NCBI GenBank assembly: GCA_977862235.1
Contig: OZ374562.1
Coordinates: 2,542,001-2,606,000 of the forward strand
From: Dudresnaya verticillata
Taxonomy: Eukaryota
Direction of reading: 5' to 3'
DNA: 64,000 nucleotides
This document shows, one piece after another, positions 14,833 to 57,415 of this stretch. The position numbers were made by a program, and so were the translations under genes. A model generated the notes under the pieces. It was not told the origin of the DNA. It searched no databases and saw only the letters and a list, made by a program, of their open reading frames with translations. Each line of letters opens with the position of its first letter. The first letter of the stretch is position 1.

Positions 14833-14996
14833 AAGTGTACAGAGAGATCTCCTTTGCAGCCTACCAAAATGTCAAGGTTTCAGAAGGTACTGTTTGTGAG
14901 GCGGTTGAGAGTGAAGTCATAGAAGGTATGAATTTTGTATCGTCCATGTCTGTCAATGTTGGTAAGTATGTGGGCAGCATAGTGTGAAGATTTTTT

Positions 14997-26645: not shown

Positions 26646-26740
26646 CCGTACGCCGAAGGCAAAACTCGGTATCCAAGTCGTGGATCACTGCCTACACGTA
26701 ACCCGAGAAGGAGAAGGAGGGCGAAAGAGAAACTTATGTC

Positions 26741-27160
26741 ATGAATTCGATCATTCTGGTTGTCACACTGCTATGCTACTTGGGGCTCCAATCCCAGACC
26801 TGCTCCGCCGTCAGCATCACCAGAGCTCGAGTGCAAGAACGCAGAGAAATACTCGCCCCAGTCGATAGACGTAATTTCAGACCGTGTCGGAGGAAGGGGA
26901 AGCGTTGTAGCTCCCACTACAGGGAGCGCTGCTGTGGAACTCTTCTTGTCTGTCTCCAATCCAGCTTGAGGTGTGCCGATTGTAAGCCCGCGCTCCGTTC
27001 TTGTACACCGAATAACGGGGAGTGCTGTTCAGGAATGAGTTGTCTTAACCGAAAATGCTGTGTGCGTCGCAATGGCTCGTGCAGTACATCATCTTCTTGC
27101 TGCCCTGGGCTTCAATGTGTCGGGTATAAATGCATTTTCAACACCGTAGGCTACCAGTAG
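26741..27160 (+). CDS. Secreted multi-knottin (ICK-like) precursor, 3 modules
   Basis: Signal MNSIILVVTLLCYLGLQSQTCSA, basic pro-region ending VDRR, three C-x6-C-x5/7-CC-x4/5-C-x4/6-C modules. Confidence 0.88.
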   Translation: MNSIILVVTLLCYLGLQSQTCSAVSITRARVQERREILAPVDRRNFRPCRRKGKRCSSHYRERCCGTLLVCLQSSLRCADCKPALRSCTPNNGECCSGMSCLNRKCCVRRNGSCSTSSSCCPGLQCVGYKCIFNTVGYQ

Positions 27161-29954
27161 TTCTTGGAACGCATGGCTTCAGTTGTAGTACCTGCAATAA
27201 TTGGGCACCTATATAAAATGGGGGAGAGCCCAAAAAGTGCGACTAGCCACTTTCGGGTACCGTTGGAATGACTGCCATCCTGTCGATGCACTTGCGTGAG
27301 TTAAGTTATTGGCAAAGTTTATGAAATGAACTGAGAGTAAAACAAACAGAGTCTGCCCCGTCCCGAGAAGGATTTTCTTTCGTGCCCTTCTCATGTGTCT
27401 CGCGTGGCGAATGTTTCAGCTACTATGAAGTGAACTTTGCCGATAGCCGCGAAAATCTCTCTTCTAAGCCATCTCAACTCTATCGTCCTTGAAACTGTCG
27501 CTGTGGTTGTTAACCACCACAAACTCTCCAATACATAAAGGTCTCCATCTAGTGGAAGTGTATTTAGAAATCTTGCGAGAAACGCTCCAAAAGCGAACAT
27601 TAGGCTTACAAATTTAGAATGCATCTCTGAGTGACTTCGTTATTATTATGGCACGTCCAAGATTTTATAGAACCATGCTACTACGTAAAGCTACAGCAGA
27701 AAGAGGGGCAGTTGTTTTTGCGGCTTTCGGGCATCCATTATAAGAATCCAGCTTATTTATGTTGACACAATTGGGGATACCAAGGGAACGGCAATATACA
27801 TAACGGCAGCGTACAATGCAACTCGTGCAGCTTGAACGAGCAATCGCTTAGCAAAGCAGCGATTATGTTTGTTGTGCATGTGTGCTGACTGCTCAATTTC
27901 GTGTCAAGGTCTCTGAAAGCAAAAATGTCAGGATTGCTCCAGCGTATTCTCGACACAGTCGTTCCAACCAGTGGAGCGAGTCGGCTCCTTGAAAGTTGGC
28001 AACGTGCGAGAATCAGCAAATTGGCTCAACCCGCCGTGGCACAAGCGAATTTGTTGTCAATAGAAGCCACAGTTTACCACATATTGGCTGAAATTTGTGG
28101 CCTAAACACAGCTGTCACAGGGGACTCTCCCTGTACACGAAAGCATTTTCGGAGCTTTATAAACACGTGACAGAGACCTTTAACTTAAAGCACTAATCTC
28201 TCAATATGAAAGAATGGGCAACTTGTGCTTTGCACAGCATGCAGATTTCTTCAAGCCTGCTCTCAACAGCGAGGCTCTTTGTGTCGGGTGACCCGACTCG
28301 ACTAGAGTCACGCCAGCGTGCTTCTAACGCTACCAAGGAGTAGCTCCACCTCTAGAATGGCATGGCAAGAATTGCGATTCTATATTATTGTAGAGAAGAT
28401 CTGTAGTACGGATTCCGTACCAAGAAATTGTAAAGCTCAAAACCTCCGATCTCTCGAGAGAGATCTTTTGGAAGAGCTGATGTAGAAGAGAGACCCTCTT
28501 TCAAGAGACATAACTTTGAAATGATACTGCATTGAATATTTGCTCAATAGTATTGCTATGCAATAGTATTGCTATGTTATTCCTGTTCTAAGAAGCCAAG
28601 AACACGTTAAAAAGAAGCGCACCGTAGACAGTGTGCGTGTAATCTTGTGATCTACAACCCTCATGTAAAGTGCTCCTAGCTCCCGGCTGCTGAGACATGG
28701 GAGAGATAACTACATGCCACTCTTCTTTGCATTGGTTAGGATGACGAATCCTCTGCACAAAACAGACATAAGTTGGCTTCCGAACTTGGGCGTCACTGTT
28801 TCTTCGCACTATCGAAGAGCAAGTCAGTAAAGAGATCAGGAGACCAACGTTCGCATTGTACTCAATCACCTTGGTTATCGCTGGGCTGTGCTTCCAGCTG
28901 CTCTTAACTCAAGAGTGTTCTGCAGTCGACATCGTCACTGTCTCGTAGGAGACACGCACAGAAATGCCCACGTCCTTGGTTAGATGCCATGTTTGGGCTA
29001 TCGCGATGCCGAAAGCGAAGGGGGAAGTGTTCCAATCTTAAGAAGTGCTGCAAAACCCTTTCCTATCAGAATGGGAAGTAGATCTTCTCAATATGGTCCC
29101 CCCTTCTCTGTATTTGACAGTACTATTATGAGATACCTACGGACCGTATCCCGAAGAATGGGGCGAAACTAGGTCCCAAAACACTGTAGGTTAAGGTTAT
29201 GCGGGACTGGTTCCTACGTTGTGCAATGGTTTAGTCTGTTTATTTCAGTGCAACACTGAGAACAGCAGGTTCAAGTTTGTGAATTGCGCTTGTTTAAACG
29301 ATTATATGCGTCCATTGTTGGAACTATCATTACATTGGCTAGTCATTACAACAACTGCAATATAGCAGTGCCGGGAAGACTCTCCTTATGCAGACAGCAA
29401 AATATCAACAGAGAGTGTGAGTGAAGAAACTTTATAGAAGATATCGGGGAGCCCAGCAAAGCCCAAGTCTGCGTCACAGTCACGCTACGCAAATTGTGGC
29501 CTCTATCGGTTAAATCCTTCCTCGAAGGAAACGATTGGTCAATATCGCGCAGCAAATGAGAGAGAGCGAGAGTTTGATCATAGAGAGAGCCTCTAATCAA
29601 CAATTGAAGCTGTGCTGTTGTGTCTGTCATAGGCAGACACGTGCCTTTTGTTCTTTCAGTATCGGTTGCAGAGGAAACTCATAGATGGATGAATGGATGG
29701 ATGCGAGGGAGCAAGGTGTAGCACTAAAGGAGTCATTGGAGAGCGCTTCAGTTAAAACCATTCAAGGTCACATAGTTCAGCACAACATATATCCATTTGA
29801 AGGCGTTCTCAATGACTCTACTCTGCAGACATGTGCGACTTATATACAGCATATATATACCGTACGCCGAAGGCAAAACTCGGTATCCAAGTCGTGGATC
29901 ACTGCCTACACGTAACCCGAGAAGGAGAAGGAGAGCGAAAGAGAAACTTATGTC

Positions 29955-30533
29955 ATGAATTCGATCATTCTGGTTGTCACACTGCTATGCTACTTGGGGC
30001 TCCAATCCCAGACCTGCTCCGCCGTCAGCATCACCAGAGCTCGAGGTCAAAAACGCAGAGAAATACTCGCACCCGTCGATAGACGTATTCTCGGATGGTG
30101 TCGTTGGAGGGGGTGGAGTTGTAGCTCCCGGCTCCACTGCTGTCGACCTACTGTCTGCCTCCAATCCAGCATGAGGTGTGCCAGTTGTAAGCATGCCGGC
30201 AATTCTTGTGACCCGAATGGCGGGGAGTGCTGTTCAGGAATGAGTTGTCTTAACCGAAAATGCTGTGTGCTTCTCAATGGCTACTGCAGTTCAAGCGATT
30301 CTTGCTGCAATTCGTACACTTGCGTCCACAATAAATGCCAGCATACCGCCTGTTTGCAACCAGGAAAAGATTGCAGAGACAACAAGGAATGCTGCCAGGG
30401 AAGTACTTGTAATTATATTTCCAAGAAATGCTGTTTCAACCGCTTCGAATCCTGCGTTCTATCTTCGTCTTGCTGTCCTGGCTTCAATTGTGTCAACGGT
30501 AAATGCGATCACCCCGGCCCAAGCAATTATTAG
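29955..30533 (+). CDS. Secreted multi-knottin (ICK-like) precursor, 5 modules
   Basis: Same signal and pro-region; five C-C-CC-C-C modules. Confidence 0.9.
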   Translation: MNSIILVVTLLCYLGLQSQTCSAVSITRARGQKRREILAPVDRRILGWCRWRGWSCSSRLHCCRPTVCLQSSMRCASCKHAGNSCDPNGGECCSGMSCLNRKCCVLLNGYCSSSDSCCNSYTCVHNKCQHTACLQPGKDCRDNKECCQGSTCNYISKKCCFNRFESCVLSSSCCPGFNCVNGKCDHPGPSNY

Positions 30534-30983
30534 AGCTCTGATTGTAAGGTTCGGGCGATATGATCGCAAATATTGTGTGTCTGCATGGAGCTTGGACGTG
30601 GACAGAACGATTTGGAACGTTTAGTATGTCCTTCACAAGGACCCAACTTGTCTATGGTACTACCTACACACAAGCTGCTTGAAAAATGCCCGAAGGGTGC
30701 AGCAGAATGGAAGTGTTTAGAACTAGGGAGGCTATTGCTTGGCTAGAAGTTTCCCAAAGGTAGTACTTCTCTTGAACACATTAATTGTTTTGATGAGCGT
30801 GCATTATGACCGTAAACTCAACGTTTTGGCGAACTGTGTATACCCTTCACAGTAGTGTGATGGTCATTGTGCAGTCATATTGCGATGTCTTCACGTCCAG
30901 GAAAAGAATACTGTAAGTAGATCTCCATTTTTTTGTAAAAAGCGCACTGCATTCATCCCTTTGCGGTCGTCTTCTTAGTCGAA

Positions 30984-31428
30984 AATGCCACGAGAAGGGG
31001 TCCCGCACGTCCACTGGAGCCCCGGCTCCGGTCGATGATGCTTCAACAGTCCCAGTCACGGAGCCCTTGTGAATAGTCATAGTCGTATCTACATCACCAG
31101 ACACTGTCGTGGTAGCTGCCGCAGTGCCCTTCAGCCCTACCTCCGGGATGTTCGACTTCTGTGCCTCACGTATTGCTTTGCCACCTTGCACATCTACTGA
31201 GAGCGAGCTCAGATCTGCAGTTCCCGACGAGTCTATTGGTAGCTCACTGGTCTTGGAGGTTTTCACGAGGTTCGTTCGGACGGCTGTCACGCAGCTGGCA
31301 TCCCTCTTTCTGCATCGGCGTCTGGTGGGAGTGGAAAGTAGCTTTGTGTCTATCGACACGTCAAACGCTGCTGCATCCACATTCGTTAGGCTTCCTCCCG
31401 ACACAGGGCACGTCTGCGGCGCTAGCAT
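30984..31428 (-). pseudogene. 5'-truncated, C-terminally frameshifted copy of the tail-collar gene
   Basis: MLAPQTCPVSGG...GAGAPVDVRDP matches the central/C-terminal part of 35674..36753; lacks signal peptide, collar domain and GIFPSRN. Confidence 0.85.
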
Positions 31429-33230
31429 GACTTCCAGCCGCAGGGAGGGAGGGGTGAGCTTCGTTCAGAATAGCGATTGAGTGTGTGTCAGGGCTATATA
31501 GGTCGTGCCGGGGTTCCGTTATTGTAAAGAAAGGGCGTTTTTCCCAAAACGATAGGTTTTGTTTGATGTACGTAAAGGCTACACGGTAAGCCGACCTTCG
31601 GTAAATCCTTCTACGTACATCCCATAACGTTGCTATTCACTGTGGCGCCTCAGTGCTCCAAAGAGTAAAAATGTGCTTTTCTTTGGTATTTCTGTCACTC
31701 TGGCCGCAGCGCGGTGCTGCACTCGAGAAATCTGACAAAGGGGTATCGTGAGGAGGTTTTCCGTAGCCACACTGAAGTGATAAAAAGTAATTGCAAAGTA
31801 TATGTGTCACTGCGTGAACGCTCCATAAGACAGCCAATCAACCGCACGGCAGAACAGGAAGCCACCAATCAGATGTTTGTTTCACAAAAGGAGCAGCCCA
31901 ATCCGCCGTCCACTGAACAACGATCCAGACCGACCGACGCAAAGAAAAATGGAAACTCCACGCAACCCCCCACCGCTCCCTTGCGTGCATCCTGTCCGCG
32001 CGACGGCCTGCGCCATGGGCGCTTGTATTGAGGGGGCAAGTCGCGCTCCAAGCCGAAGGGGAAAGCTGTGCGGCCTTTGCTCTGCATCACAGAGGTTTCA
32101 CAACAATTGCTCTCAGCAGCTGGTCGCAGGACCCTCCCGGCGTCACAGGTGAACTGCGCACCTCATATCTTCCCCCAACGGCGATATATGAGGTGCGAGA
32201 CATGTGATTGGGCATTTCGCGCTTCCCGCGCGCTAATTGGGTGAAACCAGGGCCGTCCTCGTTGTAGCACGACGGCTCTGAACCCATATTTTTGCGTTTG
32301 GTGCAGTTGCAGAATATGCCCAACTGCATCATTCAGAGTAGTTTTCTCCATTGCGACACCGCGTCACATGGCACTTTCAAAAGTATCCAAACAATAATGC
32401 CTTCCTCCTCGTTGCTGCACACCGCGGGCAACGTGTCCTAGGCACCGCACGTCTGGCGCGCGACGCGTCTCGGGAGCAACGAAGTGGAAGATGAGACATC
32501 TTCCGCGGCTGTTGCGATACCGCATCCGAACCTCTGCAACCTGTTGACGCGTTGCAGCAGCCGTCAGTGCCCGCCCCACCAGTGTCCTTCCACGCGGATC
32601 ACAAGTTGCGAGTCGCAAGAAACGCGATTGTCTGTGTCAGCAGTCCCACCGCGCGAACCTGTCAATCCGCGCCACACACCACCGCCGACAACGCGCCTTC
32701 GCCATCCCGCCGTTGGTCCAGTTTCGCAACAGCTTCATTTGTGGTTCCCCTTCGCCCGAACTGTCTAATACGAACCACGTCGGTGCGTTCACAAGCGCGG
32801 CGCAACACCCACTCCCGCTCGTCGAACAGCACAGGGCCCAATGAGTCGATATTTAACGAGTCGCTTCAACAGTTCTTCCATCCCCCTCTCTGCCGCCTTC
32901 ATCGCAGAGGACTTTCAAAACAGCGCCTAGCCCTTTCTCATTTCCCAAGCGAACTTATTCTCTCTCATTTCCCCTGCCACGTTTCCAACAATGATTGCCA
33001 CCGCCTCCCTCTTGTCCTCCTTCCGTACTCAGTTGTACTCAGTTGTGCGGTTGGAAGAACGTTTGTCCACTCCACTTCACTCTCCAGTGGAGGGTGTGCG
33101 CCTCTACTGATCCGTACCTCTTTGGATGTTTGCATTAACGACCATAGCTCTGCTCCTCATCACATGCCCAGGCATTCCGCAACTCTCAACCATCAGCCAC
33201 AATTCTCGCATTAGAACTGGTCGCCGCTCC

Positions 33231-33344
33231 GGAAAAGTTCTTCTCACTGCAAGGGAATGGTCGACGCACTGCCAGTACGGTGCTGTACGTTACTGTATCG
33301 CACTCGCACTGCGTCGTCCATTCCCTAGCAGTAATAACTTTCCC
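33231..33344. mobile_element. Two back-to-back Tc1/pogo-like TIR ends (TA-CAGTA...) forming a hairpin; copies near 39651..39764 and 56515..56628
   Basis: Left arm read on the minus strand (tacagcaccgtactggcagtgcgtcgaccattcccttgcagt) aligns ungapped with the right arm (tactgtatcgcactcgcactgcgtcgtccattccctagcagt) around a central TAcgtTA. Confidence 0.55.
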
Positions 33345-35673
33345 AGTACGGCACCGGCAATACCGGACTCTTTGTGCTCGCTTTTGAATTGTCCTCTGCC
33401 TAATGCTGATGGTACGTCTGGCCGTATCGGGGTTGGCTTTCGAAAGGCTGCCAACTTTATTGCCGCTAAGAAGGGCACGAACCCCATACTCGAGCGCTTT
33501 CTTCCGACTCGTCTCGTCAACTTCATTGTACATGATGCTGTATGTTGCTATTAGCGGGTAACTGTCGTAGCTAACATAACCTTTTTGAAATACCTCTTGT
33601 CCTTTGTAGACTCCTCGTCCGTTCTTCCGTACGCAGTTCCACACTCAGTGATTTTGTACACCTCCCCGGATCACCGTGCGAATTGTACCTAGGCCTGTTG
33701 CAGGCGCCTAAGCGTTACCGGCGTGCCGTCTCGTACATTCCTTGTGTGACACAGGCTTTCGAAAGCTTGACAGGGCTGTTGAGATTACAACGCATCCTTT
33801 CAGACAGGCACAACTCTGGCTTCTCGAAATGGCAAGGAACAGGTACGCTGTGCGTAATAGTGACGTAAAATCATCGAGAGACACCACGAGGCATATATCA
33901 GCAAGAGGAATGAGACCACACACATATAGGGCACAGCTACCCGAGACTCTCTGTGGCATATCTTTTGCTCATACCTGGTTCCCTAAACAAGTGCTTGTGG
34001 ATGTTGTAGTAGGCCTGTTTCTCATATGGTCATCTTTTTGTTGGTATCTTTCGCACCTTTTCTTGTTAGGTCATGGACATGGCCGAAGGTTGGGCTATAT
34101 ACTCGTTTCGGACTACAGCAAGTAGATCTTCTTACTGTGCATCTGACTATATCGTACGTATTCTACCTTAGTGTCCAACAATATCGTATCGCTACCAGTA
34201 AGCCGATTGGGCTTGCTTCCCCCTGTGCTAAGCCGAGACTGCCCGGTTGGTACGCTCTGCTGAGCATACAACATGGAGAAGGAACGCGCCACAGCCTTGC
34301 AAAATGATGATGATGGGTATGCTCGGGGAGGATTGGCAGCGAGATTTGAGCGCCAGCGACGGGCCTCAGCACCATCTCGCATGGTGTTCCCGGAAGCACG
34401 CTGTGTCAATGGGTGGGTATCCGACTAACTAGCGATGCAAGGGACGAAAAGGAGAACGGCGGGTAGCGGTAGGTAAAGCGAAAGCGCAAGGCTTCGCCAC
34501 AGTAGGTTGTGAGGGTTCTGTCCAGCTCCAAGGATGGCACGGAATTGTTGGCACGATTCCTTAAACAGCAACTCGTTGCCGCCTTTGCAGCGGTGCAAAC
34601 GAACGATTCCGTGACGCGATGAAGCCGCAGACAGCGGTCGGGCGATGCGGAGTGTGGAGTTTGAGTGAGCGACGTTTGGAAGTTTTCCGAAACCGGGCAC
34701 CAGCCGGTCCAACGAAACCGCGGTGCAGGCAGCGGGTGGAACTATCGAAGGCGCCGTAAGAGCCGCGACGGGCGCTTCGGTATCCCATGTCAGAGCTGCG
34801 AAGTCGCACTGTGTGGCAGCAGACCCGCGGTCTTACCTCGCGACTGATTGGGGGCTCTCGGCGCGGTGCCCAAAATCCTTTTCGCAGTGTGGTGTGCACC
34901 AACGGGAAACTGAGCAGCTTTTTCGGGTACTTTTGAAAGGCACACGGGCCGCGGTGCTCCACGAAGGAAATGGGCTCTAAACTGAGCGGCTGGTTGTGTT
35001 CTGCAGCTGCACCAAGCGCAGAAAATATGAGGGTAGAGCAGCGGTGCTGCAACAGATTGCCCGACAGAAGCCCATCTGACTACAGCCAATCAGCGAGACG
35101 GAGGCGCGGAACTACCAATCACAGACTTCCAAACTGGCCCTCTTTCCCGTCCGAGATGACCCTATCAGTTGTCCCTCCAGGGCGGGCGGTGACGTGTTCA
35201 TCAGAGCTGCTGAGAAGTGTCCTTCTCGCAAACTTCAGAGTTGCAGCGCGCAGGGATGAGAGGAAGCGTGACGCAGTGCAAAGCCAGCGTCGCCGCAACC
35301 GCCACTGCCGCCAACAACTTCTTCGCGGCTCGAGCTGCAACCCTCCTCCCCGTCCGCAGTAGACTTGATTCGGGATGCCGCCGCCCGAACGCGGTGTGCG
35401 CAGCCGACGCCGATGATTCCGCCGCGTGCAGCCATCTGTGCAGTGCGGAGTGGCTAGCGGGTATCCAGCTCCACCGCTGCCGTTTCAAGACGGACAGACC
35501 CAAGTGTATGGTCGAAAGGGCGTACAAACGCATGGGCGAGCTGCAATGGTTGCGCTATTTCTTGCGGATCGCACAGCGCCTCAGGCTTGGTTGTCGTAAG
35601 CCAACAGAAGCCCCTTCAAGCAATTTCATCTTCATGTTCTTCAAGCAGTTCGTCACCCCTAACATGCTATGTC

Positions 35674-36753
35674 CTAGTTTCTTGAAGGAAATATCCCAAC
35701 CAAGCAGATAATGAAGTTAATCCCGAGAGAAGGGTCCCGCACGTCCACCGGAGCCCCGGCTCCGGTCGATGATATTTTAACAGTCCCAGTCACGGAGCCC
35801 TCGGGAATAGTCGCAGTCGTATCTGCACCACCAGACACTGTCGTGGTTGCTGTCGCAGTGCCCTTGAGCCCTATCTCCGGGATATCCAACTTCTGTGCCT
35901 CGCACATTGCTTCGCCACCTTCCACATCTGCTGAGAGCGAGCTCAGATCTGCAGTTCCCGACGAGTCTATTGGTAGCTCACTGGTCTTAGAAATTTTCAC
36001 GAGGTTCGTTCGGACGGCTTTCACGCAGCTGGTATCCCTTTTTCTGCATCGGCGTCTGGTGGGAGTGGAAAGTAGCTTTGTGTCTATCGACACGTCAAAC
36101 GCTGCTGCATCCACATTCGCTAGGCTTCCTCCTGACACAGGGCACGTCTGCGGCGCTAGCATGACTTTCTTCTCCATAGTAGTGACGCCGGAAAGGTCAA
36201 CCGTGGTTTCAGCAGTGAGCCCGGACAGAGAGATCGGAATATCTGCGACTTCCGCCGTGCTGAGGTCAGGGGTGGCTTCGTGCTGATGAGCAGCCAAATT
36301 TCGTTCCTCAAGCGACGCTGTTTCGCTGCCCAATTTTTCTCCCAGCCCAACCCTTGATAGACCTAGGCCGGTTCCTGCACCGACTGGTACACGACCCCTA
36401 AGGTCTGGAACACCAAACGTCTGCCTGCCATCACCACCATATGTGATTCCAATAACGGAGAACAAGGCCTCATTCTCACGGATCTGAAGGAGTTGGCCAT
36501 TGCACGGTGCCCAACCGGCCGGCACAAAAGAGCCTTGACAAACCAAAGAGGAGGTGAGTATTGAAAGGTTAGGTAGATGAAGCTGTCAAAAGCAGTGATG
36601 ATGCGCAGGTCAAGGCCGGCAATAACGCAAAGCATATGCGGGAATGAAAAGCGTACCGGCAAACATGCGGACCTCTCCGATAAAACACTCCTGTGACGCG
36701 ACGGATTCGGCGAAGAAGAGAAGGGCGAGCAATGCAAGTGTGACCGCCGTCAT
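35674..36753 (-). CDS. Secreted phage tail-collar domain protein (COG4675/microcystin-dependent protein-like); 2 exons (36753-36657, 36533-35674), 318 aa
   Basis: Exon 1 encodes MTAVTLALLALLFFAESVASQECFIGEVRMFAG. The 123-nt intron runs gtacgc..cctaac..aag. Exon 2 encodes SFVPAGWAPCNGQLL..LFSVIGITYGGDGRQTFGVPDLRGRVPVG..AHQH..PSLGINFIICLVGIFPSRN. Splicing restores the canonical IGEVRMFAGxFxPxGW motif. Confidence 0.92.
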
Positions 36754-37525
36754 GGTTGCTGTGCTGTAGCTGCAGCGACCTCTTGATCGATACAGAGCTG
36801 TGGTGCGACTTGACGGTGGAGGGAAGGGATTGTGATGGTGGTATAGCAGGGTTGCAGGACGGACATAGGAAAGTTTGGCTTGAGGTAGGCACAAGGGCTG
36901 ATTTTTCTTTGCGGCAAGTCGGAAGATATCATTTGATGTTAGCCATTCTGGTATTTCATTAGGGTTGGAAACAAGAGGCGATAAACAGTGGTGCCCAAAA
37001 GGGTAATAGCTCGGCCACTTAGAAAGCGTTGGAGCAAAGACATCAAAATGCCCAAAATGACAGCTTTCTGAAATGTCGGCATCCGACATGCAATGTGGCT
37101 TCTTCTGCATGTTGCGCATGGTCGGATGGACCTATTTCCGATGCCGATCCTTTCCACTCTGTAAACAGCGGTTCCATCAGAGATCCGATGAGGTCATCAG
37201 TGTCTCCATCATCATCACATCTTTATTGAAGCAATACGAACAGCGGAAACCCTAATGACTTAGCCGCTGATGACTACTGAAAGGCCTGGACTAGCGGGAC
37301 GTCGACGATTCACGGCGAGGGCGGTGAGCTGGAGAATGCGGGAAACCAGTGGTGAAACTAACGAATGGTATTCAGTACAGTAGTAGGATTTGTTCCCCGA
37401 TCAGTGTCTCAGTGTCTCAGTAATCGCCGATAGGACATAGGGCGTACAGTACAGTAACATACGTGTCAAGTTGTGCAACAAGAGCTAGACTAAAGAGGGG
37501 ACAGGGACTTTTCAGGGATACCGAC

Positions 37526-40500
37526 GGCTGCACGCCGCGGAGTCATCGGCGTCGGCTGCGCACACCGCGTTCGGGCGGCGGCATCCCGAATCAAGTCTAC
37601 TGCGGACGAGGAGGGTTGCAGCTCGAGCCGCGAAGAAGTTGTTGGCGGCAGTGGCGGTTGCGGCGATGCTGGCTTTGCACACGCTTCCTCTCATCCCTGC
37701 GCGCTGCAACTCTGAAGTTTGCGAGAAGGACACTTCTCAGCAGCTCTGATGAACACGTCACCGCCCGCCCTGGAGGGACAACTGATAGGGTCATCTCGGA
37801 CGGGAAAGAGGGCCAGTTTGGAAGTCTGTGATTGGTAGTTCCGCGCCTCCGTCTCGCTGATTGGCTGTAGTCAGATGGGCTTCTGTCGGGCAATCTGTTG
37901 CAGCACCGCTGCTCTACCCTCATATTTTCTGCGCTTGGTGCAGCTGCAGAACACAACCAGCCGCTCAGTTTAGAGCCCATTTCCTTCGTGGAGCACCGCG
38001 GCCCGTGTGCCTTTCAAAAGTACCCGAAAAAGCTGCTCAGTTTCCCGTTGGTGCACACCACACTGCGAAAAGGATTTTGGGCACCGCGCCGAGAGCCCCC
38101 AATCAGTCGCGAGGTAAGACCGCGGGTCTGCTGCCACACAGTGCGACTTCGCAGCTCTGACATGGGATACCGAAGCGCCCGTCGCGGCTCTTACGGCGCC
38201 TTCGATAGTTCCACCCGCTGCCTGCACCGCGGTTTCGTTGGACCGGCTGGTGCCCGGTTTCGGAAAACTTCCAAACGTCGCTCACTCAAACTCCACACTC
38301 CGCATCGCCCGACCGCTGTCTGCGGCTTCATCGCGTCACGGAATCGTTCGTTTGCACCGCTGCAAAGGCGGCAACGAGTTGCTGTTTAAGGAATCGTGCC
38401 AACAATTCCGTGCCATCCTTGGAGCTGGACAGAACCCTCACAACCTACTGTGGCGAAGCCTTGCGCTTTCGCTTTACCTACCGCTACCCGCCGTTCTCCT
38501 TTTCGTCCCTTGCATCGCTAGTTAGTCGGATACCCACCCATTGACACAGCGTGCTTCCGGGAACACCATGCGAGATGGTGCTGAGGCCCGTCGCTGGCGC
38601 TCAAACCTCGCTGCCAATCCTCCCCGAGCATACCCATCATCATCATTTTGCAAGGCTGTGGCGCGTTCCTTCTCCATGTTGTATGCTCAGCAGAGCGTAC
38701 CAACCGGGCAGTCTCGGCTTAGCACAGGGGGAAGCAAGCCCAATCGGCTTACTGGTAGCGATACGATATTGTTGGACACTAAGGTAGAATACGTACGATA
38801 TAGTCAGATGCACAGTAAGAAGATCTACTTGCTGTAGTCCGAAACGAGTATATAGCCCAACCTTCGGCCATGTCCATGACCTAACAAGAAAAGGTGCGAA
38901 AGATACCAACAAAAAGATGACCATATGAGAAACAGGCCTACTACAACATCCACAAGCACTTGTTTAGGGAACCAGGTATGAGCAAAAGATATGCCACAGA
39001 GAGTCTCGGGTAGCTGTGCCCTATATGTGTGTGGTCTCATTCCTCTTGCTGATATATGCCTCGTGGTGTCTCTCGATGATTTTACGTCACTATTACGCAC
39101 AGCGTACCTGTTCCTTGCCATTTCGAGGAGCCAGAGTTGTGCCTGTCTGAAAGGATGCGTTGTAATCTCAACAGCCCTGTCAAGCTTTCGAAAGCCTGTG
39201 TCACACAAGGAATGTACGAGACGGCACGCCGTAAGGCTTAGGCGCCTGCAACAGGCCTAGGTACAATTCGCACGGTGATCCGGGGAGGTGCACAAAATCA
39301 CTGAGTGTGGAACTGCGTACGGAAGAACGATGGAAACGGGAAGCTTCACTTTCACAGAAAACGTAATCAACAGATCGCGAGGAGTCTACAAAGGACAAGA
39401 GGTATTTCAAAAAGGTTATGTTAGCAACGACAGTTGCCCGCTAACAGCAACATACAGCATCACGTACAATGAAGCTGCCGCGACGAGTCGGAAGAAAGTG
39501 CTCGAGTATGGGGTTCGTGCCCTTCTTAGCAGCAATAAAGTTGGCAGCCTTTCGAAAGGTAACCCCGATATGGCCAGACGTACCATCAGCATTAGGCAGA
39601 GGACAATTCAAAAGCGAGCACAAAGAGTCCGGTAATGCCGGTGCCGTACTGGGAAAGTTATCACTGCTAGGGAATGGACGACGCAGTGGGAGTGCGATAC
39701 AGTAACGTACAGCACCGTACTGGCAGTGCGTCGACCATTCCCTTGCAGTGAGAAGAACTTTTCCGGAGCGGCGACCAGTTCTAATGCGAGAATTGTGGCT
39801 GATGGTTGAGAGTTGCGGAATGCCTGGGCATGTGATGAGGAGCAGAGCTATGGTCGTTAATGCAAACATCCAAAGAGGTACGGATCAGTAGAGGCGCACA
39901 CCCTCCACTGGAGAGTGAAGTGGAGTGGACAAACGGTTCTTCCAACCGCACAACTGAGTACAACTGAGTACGGAAGGAGGACAAGAGGGAGGCGGTGGCA
40001 ATCATTGTTGGAAACGTGGCAGGGGAAATGAGAGAGAATAAGTTCGCTTGGGAAATGAGAAAGGGCTAGGCGCTGTTTTGAAAGTCCTCTGCGATGAAGG
40101 CGGCAGAGAGGGGGATGGAAGAACTGTTGAAGCGACTCGTTAAATATCGACTCATTGGGCCCTGTGCTGTTCGACGAGCGGGAGTGGGTGTTGCGCCGCG
40201 CTTGTGAACGCACCGACGTGGTTCGTATTAGACAGTTCGGGCGAAGGGGAACCACAAATGAAGCTGTTGCGAAACTGGACCAACGGCGGGATGGCGAAGG
40301 CGCGTTGTCGGCGGTGGTGTGTGGCGCGGATTGACAGGTTCGCGCGGTGGGACTGCTGACACAGACAATCGCGTTTCTTGCGACTCGCAACTTGTGATCC
40401 GCGTGGAAGGACACTGGTGGGGCGGGCACTGACGGCTGCTGCAACGCGTCAACAGGTTGCAGAGGTTCGGATGCGGTATCGCAACAGCCGCGGAAGATGT

Positions 40501-42012
40501 CTCATCTTCCACTTCGTTGCTCCCGAGACGCGTCGCGCGCCAGACGTGCGGTGCCTAGGACACGTTGCCCGCGGTGTGCAGCAACGAGGAGGAAGGCATT
40601 ATTGTTTGGATACTTTTGAAAGTGCCATGTGACGCGGTGTCGCAATGGAGAAAACTACTCTGAATGATGCAGTTGGGCATATTCTGCAACTGCACCAAAC
40701 GCAAAAATATGGGTTCAGAGCCGTCGTGCTACAACGAGGACGGCCCTGGTTTCACCCAATTAGCGCGCGGGAAGCGCGAAATGCCCAATCACATGTCTCG
40801 CACCTCATATATCGCCGTTGGGGGAAGATATGAGGTGCGCAGTTCACCTGTGACGCCGGGAGGGTCCTGCGACCAGCTGCTGAGAGCAATTGTTGTGAAA
40901 CCTCTGTGATGCAGAGCAAAGGCCGCACAGCTTTCCCCTTCGGCTTGGAGCGCGACTTGCCCCCTCAATACAAGCGCCCATGGCGCAGGCCGTCGCGCGG
41001 ACAGGATGCACGCAAGGGAGCGGTGGGGGGTTGCGTGGAGTTTCCATTTTTCTTTGCGTCGGTCGGTCTGGATCGTTGTTCAGTGGACGGCGGATTGGGC
41101 TGCTCCTTTTGTGAAACAAACATCTGATTGGTGGCTTCCTGTTCTGCCGTGCGGTTGATTGGCTGTCTTATGGAGCGTTCACGCAGTGACACATATACTT
41201 TGCAATTACTTTTTATCACTTCAGTGTGGCTACGGAAAACCTCCTCACGATACCCCTTTGTCAGATTTCTCGAGTGCAGCACCGCGCTGCGGCCAGAGTG
41301 ACAGAAATACCAAAGAAAAGCACATTTTTACTCTTTGGAGCACTGAGGCGCCACAGTGAATAGCAACGTTATGGGATGTACGTAGAAGGATTTACCGAAG
41401 GTCGGCTTACCGTGTAGCCTTTACGTACATCAAACAAAACCTATCGTTTTGGGAAAAACGCCCTTTCTTTACAATAACGGAACCCCGGCACGACCTATAT
41501 AGCCCTGACACACACTCAATCGCTATTCTGAACGAAGCTCACCCCTCCCTCCCTGCGGCTGGAAGTCATGCTAGCGCCGCAGACGTGCCCTGTGTCGGGA
41601 GGAAGCCTAACGAATGTGGATGCAGCAGCGTTTGACGTGTCGATAGACACAAAGCTACTTTCCACTCCCACCAGACGCCGATGCAGAAAGAGGGATGCCA
41701 GCTGCGTGACAGCCGTCCGAACGAACCTCGTGAAAACCTCCAAGACCAGTGAGCTACCAATAGACTCGTCGGGAACTGCAGATCTGAGCTCGCTCTCAGT
41801 AGATGTGCAAGGTGGCAAAGCAATGCGTGAGGCACAGAAGTCGAACATCCCGGAGGTAGGGCTCAAGGGCACTGCGACAGCTACCACGACAGTCTCTGGT
41901 GATGTAGATACGATTGTGACTATTCCCGAGGGCTCCGCGACTGGGGCGGTTGAAGTATCATTTACCGGAGCCGGGGCTCCAGTGGACGTGCGGGACCCCT
42001 TCTCGTGGCATT
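37526..42012 (-). repeat. Right arm of the large inverted repeat
   Basis: Reverse complement of 30984..35433, with a ~46-bp indel near 39330-39378 and scattered SNPs. Confidence 0.95.
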
Positions 42013-42014
42013 AA
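41568..42014 (+). pseudogene. Truncated tail-collar gene copy (148-aa ORF)
   Basis: As 30984..31428; ends DPFSWH*. Confidence 0.85.
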
Positions 42015-42390
42015 TTTATTATCTATACCGATCGATAACGGCATTAGGGATATGACCATCACACTACTGTGAATAGTATACTGTACACAGTTCGCCACAA
42101 CCTTGAATTTACGGTCATAAAGCAGGGTCATCAAAACAATTAATACGCTCAAGAGAAGTACTACCTTTGCGAAACAGCTAACCAGGCAATAGCCGCGCTA
42201 GTTCTAACCACTTCAATTCTGCTACATCCTTCCGTCATTTTGCAAGCAGCTTGTGTGTAGGTAGTAGCATAAACAAGTTGGGTCCTTATGAAGGATGCAC
42301 AAAATGTTCCAAATCACTCAGTCCACGTCCAAGCTTCATGCAGACACACAATATTTGCAATCTTATCACCCAAGCAGCACAATCAGAGCT

Positions 42391-42969
42391 CTATTCGCGG
42401 CGGCTTGGACTGGGGTAGTTGCATTTACCGCTGACACAATGGAGGCCAGGGCAGCAAGACGAAGATAAAGCGCAGGATTCGAAGCGGTTGAAACAGCATT
42501 TCTTGGAAATAAAACTACAAGCACTTCCCTGGCAGCATTCCTCGTTCCCTCTGCAATCTCTTCCTACTTGAAGACAGGCGGTCTGCTTGCATTTGTTGTG
42601 GACGCAATTGTACGGAAAGCAGCAAGAATCGCTTGAAGTGCAGGAGCCATCGCGACGCACACAGCATTTTTGGTTAATGCAAGTCATTCCTGAACAGCAC
42701 TCCAGGTAATCCCGGTCACAAGAATCGCCGGCAGGCTTGCAATCGCCACATTTCGAGCTGGATTTCAGGCAGACACTACTACAGCAGTGCTGCCGGGGTC
42801 TACAACTCCACCCCTTCCAACGACAAAATCCGAAAATACCTCTATCGACGGGTCCAAGTGTTTCTCTGAGTTTTTGCCGTCGAGCACTGCTGATGCTGAC
42901 GGCGGAGCAGGTCTGAGATTGGATCCCCAAGTAGCACAGAAGTGCGACAACCAGAATGATCGAATTCAT
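42391..42969 (-). CDS. Secreted multi-knottin precursor, 5 modules
   Basis: Paralogue of 29955..30533 in mirror position; pro-site reads VDRG. Confidence 0.9.
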   Translation of the reverse strand: MNSIILVVALLCYLGIQSQTCSAVSISSARRQKLRETLGPVDRGIFGFCRWKGWSCRPRQHCCSSVCLKSSSKCGDCKPAGDSCDRDYLECCSGMTCINQKCCVRRDGSCTSSDSCCFPYNCVHNKCKQTACLQVGRDCRGNEECCQGSACSFISKKCCFNRFESCALSSSCCPGLHCVSGKCNYPSPSRRE

Positions 42970-45900
42970 GGCATAAGTTGCTCTTTCGCTCTCCTCTTCT
43001 TTCTTGACTTGCGTTTAGGCAGTGATCCACGACTTGGAGACCGAGTTTTGCCTTCGGGGGTAGGGTATATCTATATACTGTTGTGTATATAAGTCGCACC
43101 TCTCTGCAGCGTAGAACCCTTGAGAATGCCTTCAAATGGCTCTTTGTAGTTCTGAACTGTGTGATCTTGAATGGTTTTAACTGAAGCGCTCTCTAACGAC
43201 TCCTTTAGTGCTACGCCTTGCTCCCTCGCATCCATCCATTCATCCATCTATGAGTTTCCTTTGCAACCGATACTGCAAGTGAAAAAGCCGCTGCCTTTGA
43301 CAGACACAACAGCACAGATTCATTTGTTGCGCGACATTGACCAATCGTTTTCTTTAAATGTTTAACCGCTAGAAGCAACCAATTGCGGAGCGTGACTGTG
43401 ACGCAGGCTTGGGCTTTGCAGGGCTCCCCGCTATCTTCTATAACATTTCTTCACGCACACTCTCTGTTGATACTTTGCTGCTATGGATATGCCGCATAAC
43501 ATGGTGGTTTTCGGCAAGCATATACATATAATCGTTTAAACAAGCGCAATACACAAACTTGAACCTGCCGTTCTCAGCGTTGCGCCGAAATAAACACCCT
43601 AAAGCATTCCACATCGTAGGAACCAGTCCCACAGAATCGTACCCTATAGTGTTTTGGGACCTAGAGTTTGCCACGTTCTTCGGGATACGGTCCGTAGGTA
43701 TCTCAAAATAGTACTGTTAAAAACAGAGAAGGGGGATCTTTTTGAGGAGATAAAAGGGAGCTCTACAAAGCTCCCGGGAAAAAGAGGGAGCGATTATTAT
43801 GGAGTTCCTCTGAGAAATAATTTCCATTTCCACTCCTAGGTTGAACGAGCAATTGCATAGAAAAGCGGCGACTATGTACAGTATGTTGCGCATATGTAAT
43901 GACTGTTCATTTTCGTGTCAAGGTCTCTGAAAGCAAAACGGTAAGGATTGCTACAGCGTATTCTCGACACAGTAGGCGAGTCGTTCCAACCAGTGGAGCG
44001 AGTGTCGGTTCTTTGAAAGTTGGCAACGTGCGAGCATCAGCAAATTGGCTCAACCAGCCGTAACCGCATATTGGCTGAAATTAGTGGCCTAAACACAGCT
44101 GGGTCACAGGGGACTCTCCCTGTGCACGAAAACATTTTCGAAGCTTTATAAATACGTGACAGAGACGTTTAACAATAAAGCACTAATCTCTCAATAGGAA
44201 AGAATGGGTAACTCGATTGTGCTTTGCACAGCACGTAGATTTCTTCAAGCCTGCTCTCAGCAGCGAGGCGCGTTGTGTCGAGTGACCTGACTCGAGCCAC
44301 GCCCGCACTACCAAGGAGTAGCTCCGGCTCTAGAATGGCACGACAAGAATGGCGATTCTATATTATTGTAGACAAGATCCGTACCAAGACATTATAAGGC
44401 TCTAAACGTCCGACCACTCGAGATAGATCTTTTGGATGAGCTGATGCAGAAGGGAGACCCTCTTTCAAGGGACGAAGCATGGAAATGATATCGTGTTGAC
44501 GTTTTCGTCAACAATATTGCTACATTATTCCTGATCTCAGAAGCCAAGAACACGGTAAAAGGAATCGCACTGTAGATAGTGCGTGCGTGTGTACTGGAGA
44601 TTGTTCTACAGCCGTCAGGTAAAGCGATTCGAGCTCCCGGCTGTTGAGACATGAGAGAGAAAACTATACGCCACTCTTCTCTGCATTGGTTTGGCTGCCG
44701 AATCCTCTGCACCCCACGGACACAAGTTGGCTTCCAAACTTGGGCGTCATTGTTTGTCCGCTCGCACTATCGAAGCGCTATTTCTACGATATGTGTCAAT
44801 AAAGCATACCGTTGTGGACTGAACCTGAAGAGTAGTCAAAAGAAACAATTACAGGACTCCAAACCATAAATTTGCTAGACTACTTGCAGACTACTTGCAA
44901 CGTTCAGATTTTGCTCCTGCTGTTTGAAGAGAGTTCGAATAAAAAGGCACGAACCGTAAAAGGATGGAGCGATTTAGAACTACATTTTGCAATTGGATCT
45001 GTGCGTCAAGTGAAGCTCAGTAATGAAGGAGAGGTTCGAGGCCTGCGTTTCGCGTTTTGCAAACAAAAGGAGACCTACTTGTATTCATTTATTGTATCGC
45101 TGATTACATTGCTGTCAAGGAAGGGACATCCTCCATCGCTGAGAATGCACAGAGAAGCTTGCTCTCTTAACATCTCTTACTACGCTCGTTCTTCAGTGTG
45201 TTGCAGTTAGCGTGAATCGCTGCAACCTATCCCCTCCTCCTGCAATGTGTCCTGGTAGTTGGACCCTTTCCCAAGGTTGCTTTTTTAGTATAAAACAGAG
45301 GTTGTGCTTCTTCATTTATTGGAAGTGAAGACATCGCAATTGCACAAAAGCTGGCAAAATAACAACGATTTACATGACCACGACGCTACTGTGAATAGTA
45401 TACACAGTTCGCAATAACGTTGAGTTTACGGTCATAAAACATGGCCATCAAAACTATTAATGTGTTCACGAGAAGTACTGCCCATTAAATAATATCTCCC
45501 TCTTACTCCTGGGAGCTTCGTAGAGCTCCTTCTTAGCTCCTCAATAAGGTCCCGCCTTCCCGGTTTTGACAGTAATATAGATATCTACCAACCGCATCCC
45601 GACGAACGTGACGGCCACGAAGTCCCAAAACCAGAACCAAACAGAACCAATACCGTAGGATACGGTTCTGTGCGACTGGTTCCTACGTCGTGGAATGCTT
45701 TAGGGTGTTCATTTCAGTGCAACGATGAGAACGGCAGGTTAAAGTTTGTATATTGCGCTTGTTTAAACGATTATATGCGCCCATTGTCGAAACTATTCTT
45801 ACACCGACTAGTCATTACAACAACAGCAATATCGCAGCATCTAGAAGACTCTCCTTATGCAGACAGTCCTCTTCTGGCCTTACACATGATGACAGTTTAT

Positions 45901-49438: not shown

Positions 49439-49708
49439 AAGGATGCGAAGGAGCAAGGCGTAGCACAATAGGAGTCGTTGGAGAGCGCTTCAGTTAAAAT
49501 CATTCAAGATCACACAGTTCTGCACAACATAGAGCCATTTGAAGGCGTTCAAGGCGTTCCCAAGGACTCTACTCTGCAGAGACGTGCGACTTATATACAA
49601 CATATATATACAGTACCCCCGAAGTCAAAGCTCGGTCTCTGCAAATCGTAGATCACTGCCTAAACGTAACCCGAGAATGAGATGGAGAGCGAAAGAGCAA
49701 CATATGCC

Positions 49709-54852: not shown

Positions 54853-57415
54853 GGATAATAAATTAATGCCACGAGAAGGGGTCCCGCACGTCCACTGGAG
54901 CCCCGGCTCCGGTCGATGATGCTTCAACAGTCCCAGTCACGGAGCCCTTGTGAATAGTCACAGTCGTATCTACATCACCAGACACTGTCGTGGTAGCTGC
55001 CGCAGTGCCCTTCAGCCCTACCTCCGGGATGTTCGACTTCTGTGCCTCACGCATTGCTTTGCCACCTTGCACATCTACTGAGAGCGAGCTCAGATCTGCA
55101 GTTCCCGACGAGTCTATTGGTAGCTCACTGGTCTTGGAGGTTTTCACGAGGTTCGTTCGGACGGCTGTCACGCAGCTGGCATCCCTCTTTCTGCATCGGC
55201 GTCTGGTGGGAGTGGAAAGTAGCTTTGTGTCTATCGACACGTCAAACGCTGCTGCATCCACATTCGTTAGGCTTCCTCCCGACACAGGGCACGTCTGCGG
55301 CGCTAGCATGACTTCCAGCCGCAGGGAGGGAGGGGTGAGCTTCGTTCAGAATAGCGATTGAGTGTGTGTCAGGTCGTGCCGGGGTTTCGTTATTGTAAAG
55401 AAAGGGCGTTTTTCGCAAAACGATAGGTTTTGTTTGATGTACGTAAACGCTACGTACTTCGTATAACGTTGCTATTCACTGTGGCGCCTCAGTGCTCCAA
55501 AGAGCAAAACTGTGGTACTCTTTGGTATTTCTGTCGGTCTGGCCGCAGCGCGGTGCTGCACTCGAGAAATCTGACACAGGGCTATCGTGGGGAGGTTTTC
55601 CGTAGCCGCACTGAAGTGCGAAAAAGTAATTGCAAAGTATATGTGCCACTGCGTGAAGGTTCCGGAAGACAGCCAATCAACCGCACGGCATAGCAGGAAG
55701 CCACCAATCAGATATTTACAAAAGGAGCAGCCCACTTTGCTCGGCATCAGAGGTTTCACAACAACAATTGCTCACAGCAGCTGGGACCCTCCCCGCGCCA
55801 CAGCTGAACTGCGCACCTCACATCCCCAACGGCGATATGATATGCGAGACATGTGATTGGACATTTCGCTCTTCCCGCGCGCTAATTGGGTAAAATCAGG
55901 ACCGTCCTCGTTGTAGCACAACGGCTCTCAACCCATATTTTTTGCATTTGGTGCAGTTGCAGAATATGCCGAACTGCATCATTCAGAGTACTTTTCTCGA
56001 CTGCGGCACCGCGTCACACGGCACTTTCAAAAGTATCCAAACAAAAAGGCCTTCCTCCTCATTGCTGCACACCGCGGTGGGCAAAGTGTCCTTGCCACGC
56101 GCTTCGCGCGCACGCCTCGGCGCGCCTCGGGAACAAAGTGGAAGATGGGACTTTGAGTCGATATTTATCGAGTCGCTTCAACAGATCTGTCGTCCCCCCC
56201 TCTGCCGCCTTCATCGTAGCCTACTGAGTAGGGGACTCTCAGCAGAGCGCCTAGCCCTTTCTCATTTCCCTTACCACATTTCCAACAACGATTGCCGCCT
56301 CCCTCTTGTTCTCCTTCCGTATTCAGTTGTGCAAGTGGAAGAACCGTTTGTCCACTCCACTTCACTCTCCAGTGGAGGGTGAGCGCCTCTACTGATCCGT
56401 ATCTCTTTGGGTGTTTGCATTAAAGACCATATCTTTGCTCCTGATCACAAGCCCAGGCTTTTCACAGCTCTCAACATCAGCCACAATTCTCGCATCAGAT
56501 CTGGTCGCCTCTCCGGAAAAGTTCTTCTCACTGCAAGGGAATGGTTGACACACTGCCAGTACGATACTGTACGTTACTGTACCGTACTCGCACTCCGACG
56601 TCCATTCCCTAGCAGTGATAACTTTCCCAGTACGGTTACTGGCAACACATTACCAGTTTCTTTGTGCTCGCTGCTGAATTGTCCTCCCCCTAATGCTGAT
56701 GGTACGTCTGGCCGTATCGGGACCGGCTTTCGAAAGGCTGCCAGCGTTACTGCCGCTAAGAAGGGCACGACCCCCATAGTCGAGCGCTTTCTTCCGACTC
56801 GTCTCATCAGCTTCGTGATGCTGTATGTTGCTGTTAACGAGCAACTGTCATTGCCTGACATAACCTTTAGAAATACCTCTTGTCCTTTGTAGACTCGTCG
56901 TGATCTGTTGATTATGTTTTCTGTGAAAGTGAAGATTATCCTTTCCTTCCTTCTTCCGTACGCAGTTCCACGCTTAGTGATTTTGTGCACCTCCCCGGGT
57001 CACCGTGCGAATGGAACCGAGGCCTGTTGCAGGCGCCAAAGCCTTACCGGCGTGCCTTCTCGTACATTCCTTGTGTGACACACGCTTTCGAATGCTTGAC
57101 AGGGTTATTCAGATTACAACGCATCCTTTCAGACAGACGCATCTCTGGCTCCTCGCAATGGAAAGGAACAGGTATGCTGTTCGGGATAGTGCGTGAGATA
57201 ATCGAGAGACACCACGAAGAATGTATCAGCAAGAGGAATGAGACCACACACGCACAGGGCACAGCTACCCGAGACTCTGTCTGGCATATCTTTTGCTGGC
57301 ATCTGGTTCCCTACACATCTGCTTGTGGAGAAGGAACGCATCACAGCCTTGCGAAACGACAATGATGGATATGCTCGGGGAAGCTTGGCAGCGAGGCTTG
57401 AGCGCCTGCGACGGC
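54853..57415 (+). repeat. Third, more diverged and internally deleted copy of the 30984..34375 arm
   Basis: Contains the tail-collar fragment, the TIR hairpin and diverged versions of the same ORF-track peptides. Confidence 0.9.
54863..55309 (-). pseudogene. Truncated tail-collar gene copy (148-aa ORF)
   Basis: Near-identical to 30984..31428 and 41568..42014. Confidence 0.85.

What the first reader, a model, noticed from the sequence alone, without database searches (positions are those of the whole stretch)
35674..36753. Bacterial/phage tail-collar (tail-fibre tip) protein domesticated in a eukaryote: spliceosomal intron plus signal peptide
Seen: a full COG4675-type sequence from IGEVRMFAG to the GIFPSRN C-terminus, with an HxH motif. 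A GT-AG intron with a CTAAC branch site interrupts it, and a hydrophobic signal peptide precedes it. The ORF track misses exon 1. Established: such proteins are normally bacterial or phage tail-fibre-like trimers without signal peptides. Inference: an HGT-derived gene retargeted to the secretory pathway, possibly a microbe-binding lectin or adhesin. The long beta/Thr-rich insert after HQH could form an extended needle with a basic, Cys-containing tip (RRRCRKRDTSC).
Basis: partly seen in the sequence, partly recalled or inferred. Interest (0 to 1): 0.9.

Follow-up and report, generated by a model that had tools for sequence, protein, structure and literature searches.

The report
Eukaryote's elongated phage-fibre-tip gene
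This eukaryote carries an intron-split gene related to bacterial and phage tail-fibre tips, and its product is predicted to be secreted and likely forms a three-chain needle whose positively charged end would grip negatively charged sugars on cell surfaces.

Summary
The gene is real. Exon 1 (36753-36657), a 123-nt GT-AG intron and exon 2 (36533-35674) give a 318-aa protein with a signal-peptide-like start, Pfam Collar domain, one HxH and the bacterial COG4675-type C-terminus. This splice is the best of 79 possible ones by homology; no RNA run was listed. Its closest kin are cellular bacterial collar proteins, not phage proteins. One other protein, a eukaryote (MMETSP) transcript, shares the long insert. 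In both, a conserved Cys pair sits symmetrically about a basic tip, with compensating indels (46/47 and 38/38 residues), which supports an out-and-back needle with an acidic stem, a likely disulfide and a cationic head. Trees do not resolve the donor; the trimer could not be modelled. An open frame upstream leaves a membrane-anchored form possible. The gene lies in the spacer of a 4.5-kb inverted repeat with three broken partial copies. Verdict: new eukaryotic variant of a known fold, function untested.

The parts
36657..36753 (-). Exon 1: start codon, signal-peptide-like leader and first collar strand (FIGEVRMFAG)
36694..36753 (-). Predicted signal peptide, residues 1-20 (cleavage after A19 or S20 fits the -3/-1 rule; judged by eye)
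   Evidence: hydropathy; same leader length in homologue P0049 (HxH at 115-117 in both)
36534..36656 (-). Phase-1 GT-AG intron, 123 nt, with in-frame stop
   Evidence: best of 79 combinations
36568..36572 (-). CTAAC branch-site candidate
35674..36533 (-). Exon 2, to the stop codon
36385..36678 (-). Collar domain PF07484, residues 26-82, split by the intron
   Evidence: profile positions 7-57 on exon 2; positions 1-57 = residues 26-82 of P0049
36280..36288 (-). Single HxH motif (H115-Q-H117), candidate trimer-axis metal site
   Evidence: invariant in all 18 rows of alignment A1
36079..36279 (-). Outgoing stem strand, residues 118-184, with conserved C163
   Evidence: register symmetry, (inferred)
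35965..36078 (-). Basic head, about residues 185-222, with non-conserved C195 and C202
   Evidence: 11 K+R and 3 D+E in the central 40 residues
35764..35964 (-). Returning stem strand, residues 223-289, with conserved C243
   Evidence: inferred
35677..35763 (-). C-terminal collar-closing segment (G290 to FPSRN)
36754..37131 (-). Open frame upstream of the start, with in-frame ATGs at 37119, 37110, 37089; probably non-coding
30984..35439 (.). Left arm of a 4.5-kb inverted repeat (97.9% identical to the right arm)
37520..42012 (.). Right arm of the inverted repeat
30984..31433 (-). Broken partial copy of the gene (codons about 156-300; 92% DNA identity; lacks C243; out of frame after the VRDP motif)
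41563..42024 (+). Second broken partial copy
54854..55314 (-). Third broken partial copy, at the end of a shorter copy of the same repeat unit

Best explanation
This is an intron-split eukaryotic gene of the bacterial tail-collar family, likely gained from a bacterium, whose product is predicted to be secreted and would assemble as a three-chain needle that likely binds polyanionic surface sugars with its basic head. Shown: gene structure, collar domain, single HxH, long insert shared with one other eukaryote, symmetric Cys pair, acidic stem and basic tip. Inferred, in order: (1) the leader sends the protein into the ER and is cut off; (2) three collar domains trimerise as in T4 gp12/gp37 and the six His of HxH bind one metal ion on the axis; (3) each chain runs out about 67 residues and back, forming a six-stranded needle longer than gp37's 128-residue insert, held by a C163-C243 cross-strand disulfide and small or hydrophobic residues rather than by a row of iron sites; (4) three basic loops form a cationic head that binds anionic glycans (bacterial lipopolysaccharide or the organism's own sulfated or acidic wall polymers; the ligand is not decided); (5) since the chain has no anchor, the collar end would have to dock on a wall component or partner protein. 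The signal peptide may have come with the bacterial donor gene.
For: Splice and frame. Collar 84.5 bits; profile hits to cyanophage A-1(L) long tail fibre 8kec (E 2e-12) and T4 gp12 1ocy (E 2e-6). Eukaryotic homologue P0049, a complete MMETSP transcript ORF with the same leader, 41% identity over 290 columns; insert-only alignment score 148 against 37 +/- 6 (max 74) in 2,000 shuffles. Symmetry: H117 to C163 = 46 and C243 to G290 = 47 here; 38 and 38 in P0049; Cys-to-Cys 80 and 81; the mirrored register pairs C with C and GG with GG. Charge: tip 11 K+R / 3 D+E, stem 5 / 16; P0049 8 / 1 and 1 / 11. Threefold use of the domain: 36 of the 120 listed homologues hold three collar motifs in one chain, and one such protein folds at pLDDT 93, pTM 0.87, its five best VIA rows being phage fibre tips (Z 3.1-4.4). 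gp37: collar with an inserted needle, trimer, binds LPS and OmpC (PMC6957217, passages); virophage collar trimer binds Synechococcus cells, LPS proposed (PMC12724248, passages).
Against: The model of this protein as a monomer is poor (pLDDT 52, pTM 0.27), so the needle and disulfide rest on sequence symmetry in two sequences only. No anchor is evident, which an adhesin needs. Out/return length compensation was not detected in bacterial members (rho 0.14, p 0.25; 65 of 134 measurable with crude landmarks). Core-only trees do not group the two eukaryotic proteins (0 of 200 bootstrap trees; sister with SH-aLRT 60; AU p 0.31 does not reject), and name no donor. The frame is open upstream (chance 0.014-0.027). 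Ligand binding is by analogy only; fibre heads are the variable part. The signal peptide was judged by hydropathy, not by SignalP.
Confidence: 0.55

Rival explanations
1. Specific microbe-recognition lectin: the head recognises particular bacterial surface receptors, serving defence or microbiome selection, rather than binding polyanions in general.
For: Phage and virophage relatives bind LPS or porins; neighbouring genes are duplicated secreted Cys-rich proteins in an unstable region, as is usual for interaction genes (general knowledge).
Against: Only one intact copy in the window and no sign of head diversification among local copies (the three fragments are near-identical in the head); head charge is conserved while its sequence is not, which fits electrostatic binding better.
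Confidence: 0.2
2. Membrane-anchored (type II) form: translation starts at an upstream ATG, the hydrophobic stretch is an uncleaved anchor, and the needle stands on the cell surface.
For: 126 open codons upstream with three in-frame ATGs; chance of that openness 0.014 (Markov) or 0.027 (empirical). It would solve the missing anchor.
Against: The upstream frame looks non-coding (G at codon position 1: 0.17 against 0.40 in the gene; codon score -0.14 against -0.02), has no Pfam match and holds six out-of-frame ATGs; the complete homologue P0049 starts at the same place; the hydrophobic stretch is only about 11 residues.
Confidence: 0.1
3. Older or different origin: from the cyanobacterial plastid ancestor, or from a virophage, giant virus or phage, not a lateral transfer from a free-living bacterium.
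For: Cyanobacteria carry the family (Oculatella, L037); collar proteins occur in virophages (PMC3671162, one table passage; PMC12724248). Trees are unresolved.
Against: Phage hits are distant and partial (0 of 323 records cover 80% of the query); one weak IMG/VR hit for this protein; only one eukaryotic homologue with the insert was found among 5.8 billion clusters, which argues against a broad ancient family, though those searches scored only about 8,000 candidates each.
Confidence: 0.1
4. Artefact or relic: bacterial contamination, chimeric assembly, or a dead gene.
For: The region is repeat-rich, with a large inverted repeat that can trouble assemblers; no reads could be laid.
Against: A spliceosomal-type intron with an in-frame stop cannot come from a bacterium; four diverged copies are woven into the region (92% to the intact gene, arms 97.9%); the frame is intact while the three copies are broken; a transcribed homologue keeps the same design.
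Confidence: 0.05

Closest known systems
Bacterial cellular tail-collar proteins
   Same: Whole frame of the protein: first strand, YGGDG, PDLRGR, one HxH, C-terminal GIFPSRN; 55-65% core identity; some members have a signal peptide ending at the same place.
   Different: Intron; insert of 182 residues from HxH to the closing Pro motif against median 58, range 46-94 in 104 of 134 measured comparison rows; conserved Cys pair; strongly basic head; one intact copy rather than the 2-3 tandem paralogues seen in 22 of 80 bacterial loci.
T4 gp37 needle (PDB 2xgf), T4 gp12 (1ocy) and cyanophage A-1(L) long tail fibre (8kec)
   Same: Collar domain with an inserted out-and-back segment and His-x-His.
   Different: No shaft or baseplate-binding part; one HxH against seven iron sites in gp37; signal peptide; insert longer than gp37's 128 residues; no virion genes nearby.
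Virophage DSLV2 tripartite tail proteins (PMC12724248)
   Same: Shaft-less collar-plus-head proteins forming a trimer that binds bacterial surfaces (passages).
   Different: Viral, three different chains, predicted to dock on a capsid; not secreted through the ER.
[quoted passage not shown]
   Same: Eukaryotic protein with a SignalP-predicted signal peptide and a collar domain.
   Different: 191 aa, too short for this insert; only a table entry, no origin or structure discussed in the passages seen; its sequence was not compared.
P0049 (MMETSP transcript, 302 aa)
   Same: Leader length, collar, HxH, long insert, Cys pair, basic head, acidic stem.
   Different: 8-9 residues shorter on each stem strand; no Cys in the head; itself undescribed.

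Membership tests
Pfam PF07484 phage tail collar domain | Score above the curated cut-off (24 bits) | tested here: met
   84.5 bits on exon 2 alone; P0049 106.5 bits
Bacterial COG4675/MdpB-like collar proteins | Full stand-alone frame: first strand, YGGDG, PDLRGR, HxH, C-terminal GIFP | tested here: met
   alignments; 142.7 bits against own HMM
Bacterial COG4675/MdpB-like collar proteins | Match to the COG4675 model itself | not testable with these tools
   no COG library; NCBIfam gave no family
Bacterial COG4675/MdpB-like collar proteins | Short head insert (46-94 residues) | tested here: not met
   182 residues here, 166 in P0049
Bacterial three-gene fibre-tip cassette (from earlier unchecked AI notes) | Tandem intact paralogues with conserved partner genes | tested here: not met
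   one intact copy and three broken fragments in 64 kb; neighbours are eukaryotic; rest of the genome not held
T4 gp37/gp12-type fibre tip | Collar fold with inserted needle or head | tested here: met
   profile hits to 8kec, 1ocy, 1pdi, 5iv5; insertion between HxH and closing strand
T4 gp37/gp12-type fibre tip | Intertwined trimer | tested here: inconclusive
   not modelled for this protein; indirect only, from natural three-repeat homologues
T4 gp37/gp12-type fibre tip | Row of HxH iron sites along the needle | tested here: not met
   no His in residues 118-289; gp37 has seven sites
T4 gp37/gp12-type fibre tip | Shaft joining it to a virion; phage gene context | tested here: not met
   collar follows the leader directly; no phage genes seen among the ORFs scanned
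T4 gp37/gp12-type fibre tip | Binding of LPS or an outer-membrane receptor | not testable with these tools
   needs an experiment
Spliced nuclear gene | GT-AG ends, branch site, pyrimidine tract, splice restores homology | tested here: met
Spliced nuclear gene | Junction seen in RNA | not testable with these tools
   no run could be laid
Classically secreted protein | Cleavable N-terminal signal peptide, no later membrane span, no ER-retention tail | tested here: inconclusive
   hydropathy and C-terminus fit; no SignalP; upstream in-frame ATGs exist
Bacterium-to-eukaryote transferred gene | Eukaryotic clade nested with support inside a bacterial group | tested here: inconclusive
   no starred set holds either eukaryotic row

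The most novel reading that the evidence does not exclude
A eukaryotic lineage has rebuilt a bacterial/phage fibre tip into a secreted, disulfide-braced needle about three times the bacterial length, with a cationic head, and uses it as a home-made 'tail fibre' to catch or select bacteria at its surface: a phage-type receptor-binding device turned into an innate recognition molecule.
Probability: 0.25. Interest if true: 0.85.

Novelty: new variant of a known kind. Interest (0 to 1): 0.57.

Why it matters
Phage-fibre-tip folds are precise, stable binding devices. A eukaryote that secretes its own, lengthened version would show a new route to surface recognition or wall building, and gives a small soluble protein on which to test what the large, unstudied bacterial collar family binds. 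The design change (one metal site, a stem disulfide, a longer stem) also bears on how such needles fold without phage chaperones.

Tried and rejected
No whole genome is held for this window. No RNA holder was listed; this is no evidence on expression. The protein atlas gave no answer. The monomer model was too poor for fold searches: no Foldseek match at E 0.001, best VIA Z 3.3 to unrelated chains; Foldseek with the three-repeat homologue also gave none at E 0.001, its top three rows being T4 and A-1(L) fibres. Insert-only searches found nothing new: 0 of 4,497 candidates (it also missed P0049, so it is insensitive), only P0049 of 7,991, 0 of 452 and 0 of 161 metagenome stretches. The representative search found 29,782 proteins at E 0.001 but the 150 listed were all multi-repeat proteins, so eukaryotic single-domain relatives could be hidden below. 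A Bacteroidota donor was considered because of the matching signal-peptide junction, but the trees place neither eukaryotic protein with those rows. dN/dS against the broken copies (0.64-0.80; among copies 0.9-1.1) is uninformative on selection in the intact gene. The host lineage could not be fixed: 0 of 6 window proteins were in the collection, and earlier notes held nothing on this genome; my impression of a red-alga-like genome is recall only. No Rfam match in the window. Nine paper searches listed no study of eukaryotic secreted collar proteins beyond the Plasmodiophora table row; the gp37 structure paper was not held; subscription journals are mostly missing and no supplements were read, so HGT lists in supplements may already hold this family.

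Full report
Observation. The minus strand holds an ATG at 36753, a 97-nt exon, a 123-nt intron (36656-36534) and an 860-nt exon ending at 35674; spliced, this gives 318 aa from MTAVTLALL to GIFPSRN. The intron starts GTACGC, ends AAG, has CTAAC at 36572, a 77% pyrimidine tract and an in-frame TGA. Exon 2 matches Pfam Collar at 84.5 bits and PHROG tail families (best E 7e-17). The surroundings are eukaryotic in kind: a RING-finger gene, repeated secreted Cys-rich genes and low gene density. The lineage is not established.

Relatives. The homologue search returned 4,446 proteins among 7,993 candidates; the full library holds 29,782 at E 0.001. Those of the 120 listed that carry organism names are bacterial, many labelled 'microcystin-dependent protein'. 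Core identity to the closest rows is 55-65%, whereas no phage record of 323 covers 80% of the query and the 15 listed are 32-48% identical over under half of it. So the source is the cellular bacterial family rather than a phage gene. One hit, P0049, is a complete ORF from an MMETSP eukaryote transcriptome. It has the same leader length, is 41% identical over the whole of exon 2, and shares the long insert (insert-only score 148 against 37 +/- 6 in 2,000 shuffles). No third protein with the insert was found, but these searches are limited.

Signal peptide. Residues 4-14 are strongly hydrophobic, followed by small residues fitting cleavage after A19 or S20; no later membrane span and no retention tail are evident. 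Among the 120 listed homologues, 10 of 39 with one collar motif (P0049 included) and 35 of 81 with two or three met a simple leader test. In 80 bacterial loci fetched with a leader-bearing query, 17 of 106 collar ORFs were flagged (one or two falsely), mostly Flavobacteriales such as Kaistella; their junction (…AQ-x-FIGE) matches this protein's (…SQECFIGE). The leader may therefore be inherited from the donor. A caveat in the other direction: the frame is open for 126 codons upstream with three ATGs (chance 0.014-0.027), but this stretch has non-coding composition and no Pfam match, and P0049 starts where this protein is taken to start.

Anatomy of the insert. From HxH to the closing Pro motif there are 182 residues here and 166 in P0049, against a median of 58 (46-94) in 104 of 134 comparison rows that could be measured. 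In T4 gp37 the needle is an insertion into the collar, the chains form a trimer, seven His-bound iron atoms lie along the needle, and the tip binds LPS and OmpC (PMC6957217, passages). Here the two conserved cysteines lie 46 residues after H117 and 47 before G290; in P0049, 38 and 38; the loop between them is 80 and 81 residues. An 8-residue difference on the way out is thus matched by a 9-residue difference on the way back, and the mirrored register pairs C with C and GG with GG. This is what an antiparallel out-and-back needle predicts, with a cross-strand disulfide suited to the secretory pathway. The head is basic and the stem acidic in both proteins. There is no His beyond 117, so only one metal site is possible. 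A like length test on bacterial members was negative (rho 0.14, p 0.25, 65 of 134 rows).

Structure. The monomer model is poor (pLDDT 52), as expected of an intertwined trimer but no support in itself. Profile search of the PDB finds the A-1(L) long tail fibre and T4 gp12. Thirty-six of the 120 listed homologues hold three collar motifs in one chain; an alignment of 67 such proteins folded at pLDDT 93, pTM 0.87, and the five best VIA rows were phage fibre tips at Z 3.1-4.4. I saw scores and secondary structure, not coordinates, so the pseudo-threefold packing is inferred.

Origin. Three trees were built. With 136 rows (quick search) the two eukaryotic proteins were sisters at SH-aLRT 60. With 64 selected rows and with 35 selected rows of 128 core columns they were not (0 of 200 bootstrap trees each; bootstraps unsettled), and the AU test did not reject a clade (p 0.31). 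No donor is identified. Common origin of the two rests on the shared insert and leader; transfer from bacteria rests on the family's distribution.

Locus. The gene lies in the 2.08-kb spacer of an inverted repeat (30984-35439 and 37520-42012, 97.9%). Each arm ends in a partial copy of the gene's 3' half, and a third lies at 54854-55314. The three share the same 5' breakpoint, are 92% identical to the gene, have lost C243, run out of frame before the last strand and drift at dN/dS near 1 among themselves. They are relics, and show that the gene has long resided in this genome.

What is known. Nine searches of the held library found no study of secreted eukaryotic collar proteins. A 191-aa Plasmodiophora brassicae protein with a predicted signal peptide is listed as 'Phage Tail Collar Domain' in a table of candidate effectors (PMC9530463, passages). 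Collar proteins occur in virophages (PMC3671162, one passage), where a heterotrimer binds Synechococcus (PMC12724248, passages). Unchecked notes of this scan report membrane-anchored collar proteins in foraminifera and another eukaryote and a widespread bacterial three-gene cassette; these are leads, not support.

Verdict. It works like a shaft-less fibre tip; it is a member of PF07484 and of the bacterial stand-alone collar family by its frame, but not a phage fibre and not a typical bacterial member, since it has an intron, a threefold longer insert, a Cys-braced stem and a basic head. New variant of a known kind; gene structure near certain, needle likely, ligand and role untested. Interest 0.57.

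Noticed in passing
window 1-16388: A 4,891-bp unit repeated head to tail at least three times at 99.99% identity, carrying a secreted Cys-rich gene (about 4526-5050), followed by an inverted partial copy at 14997-16388; recent amplification or assembly artefact.
   Followed up: no
window 26702-27160 (+), 29916-30533 (+), 42391-43014 (-), 46433-46888 (+), 49670-50152 (+): Five paralogues of a secreted Cys-rich protein (leader, basic pro-region, repeated CC motifs) on about 80%-identical duplicated blocks; only sub-threshold Dickkopf_N and Toxin_12 Pfam hits.
   Followed up: partly
window 29082-43751: The young 4.5-kb inverted repeat is nested in an older one (29082-30867 against 43751-42052, 80.6%), so the locus has folded back more than once; read-through could give a long hairpin RNA with sequence matching the collar gene (speculation).
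   Followed up: partly
window 17702-19981 (+) and 58868-60676 (+): Intronless-looking host genes: a RING-finger protein (Pfam; RNF10-like by recall) and a protein with a bZIP-like C-terminus (by recall; no Pfam hit at E 0.1).
   Followed up: partly
window 51085-51831 (+), 16847-17335 (-): ORFs that look like retroelement remnants (recall; no Pfam hit).
   Followed up: no
L001, L002, L003, L004, L007, L077 (about 5000-7500): In Flavobacteriales the signal-peptide-bearing collar gene, single or in tandem, is followed by a conserved secreted protein of about 225 aa whose tail resembles a type IX secretion signal (recall).
   Followed up: partly
L082, L083: Short IMG/VR 'viral' contigs carry three tandem signal-peptide collar genes plus a secreted protein, and look like bacterial chromosomal cassettes rather than phage DNA.
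   Followed up: partly
P0001 and relatives (not in the window): A large bacterial group with signal peptide, three collar repeats in one chain and a PEP-CTERM anchor; folds confidently as one body, a likely single-chain pseudo-trimer.
   Followed up: partly
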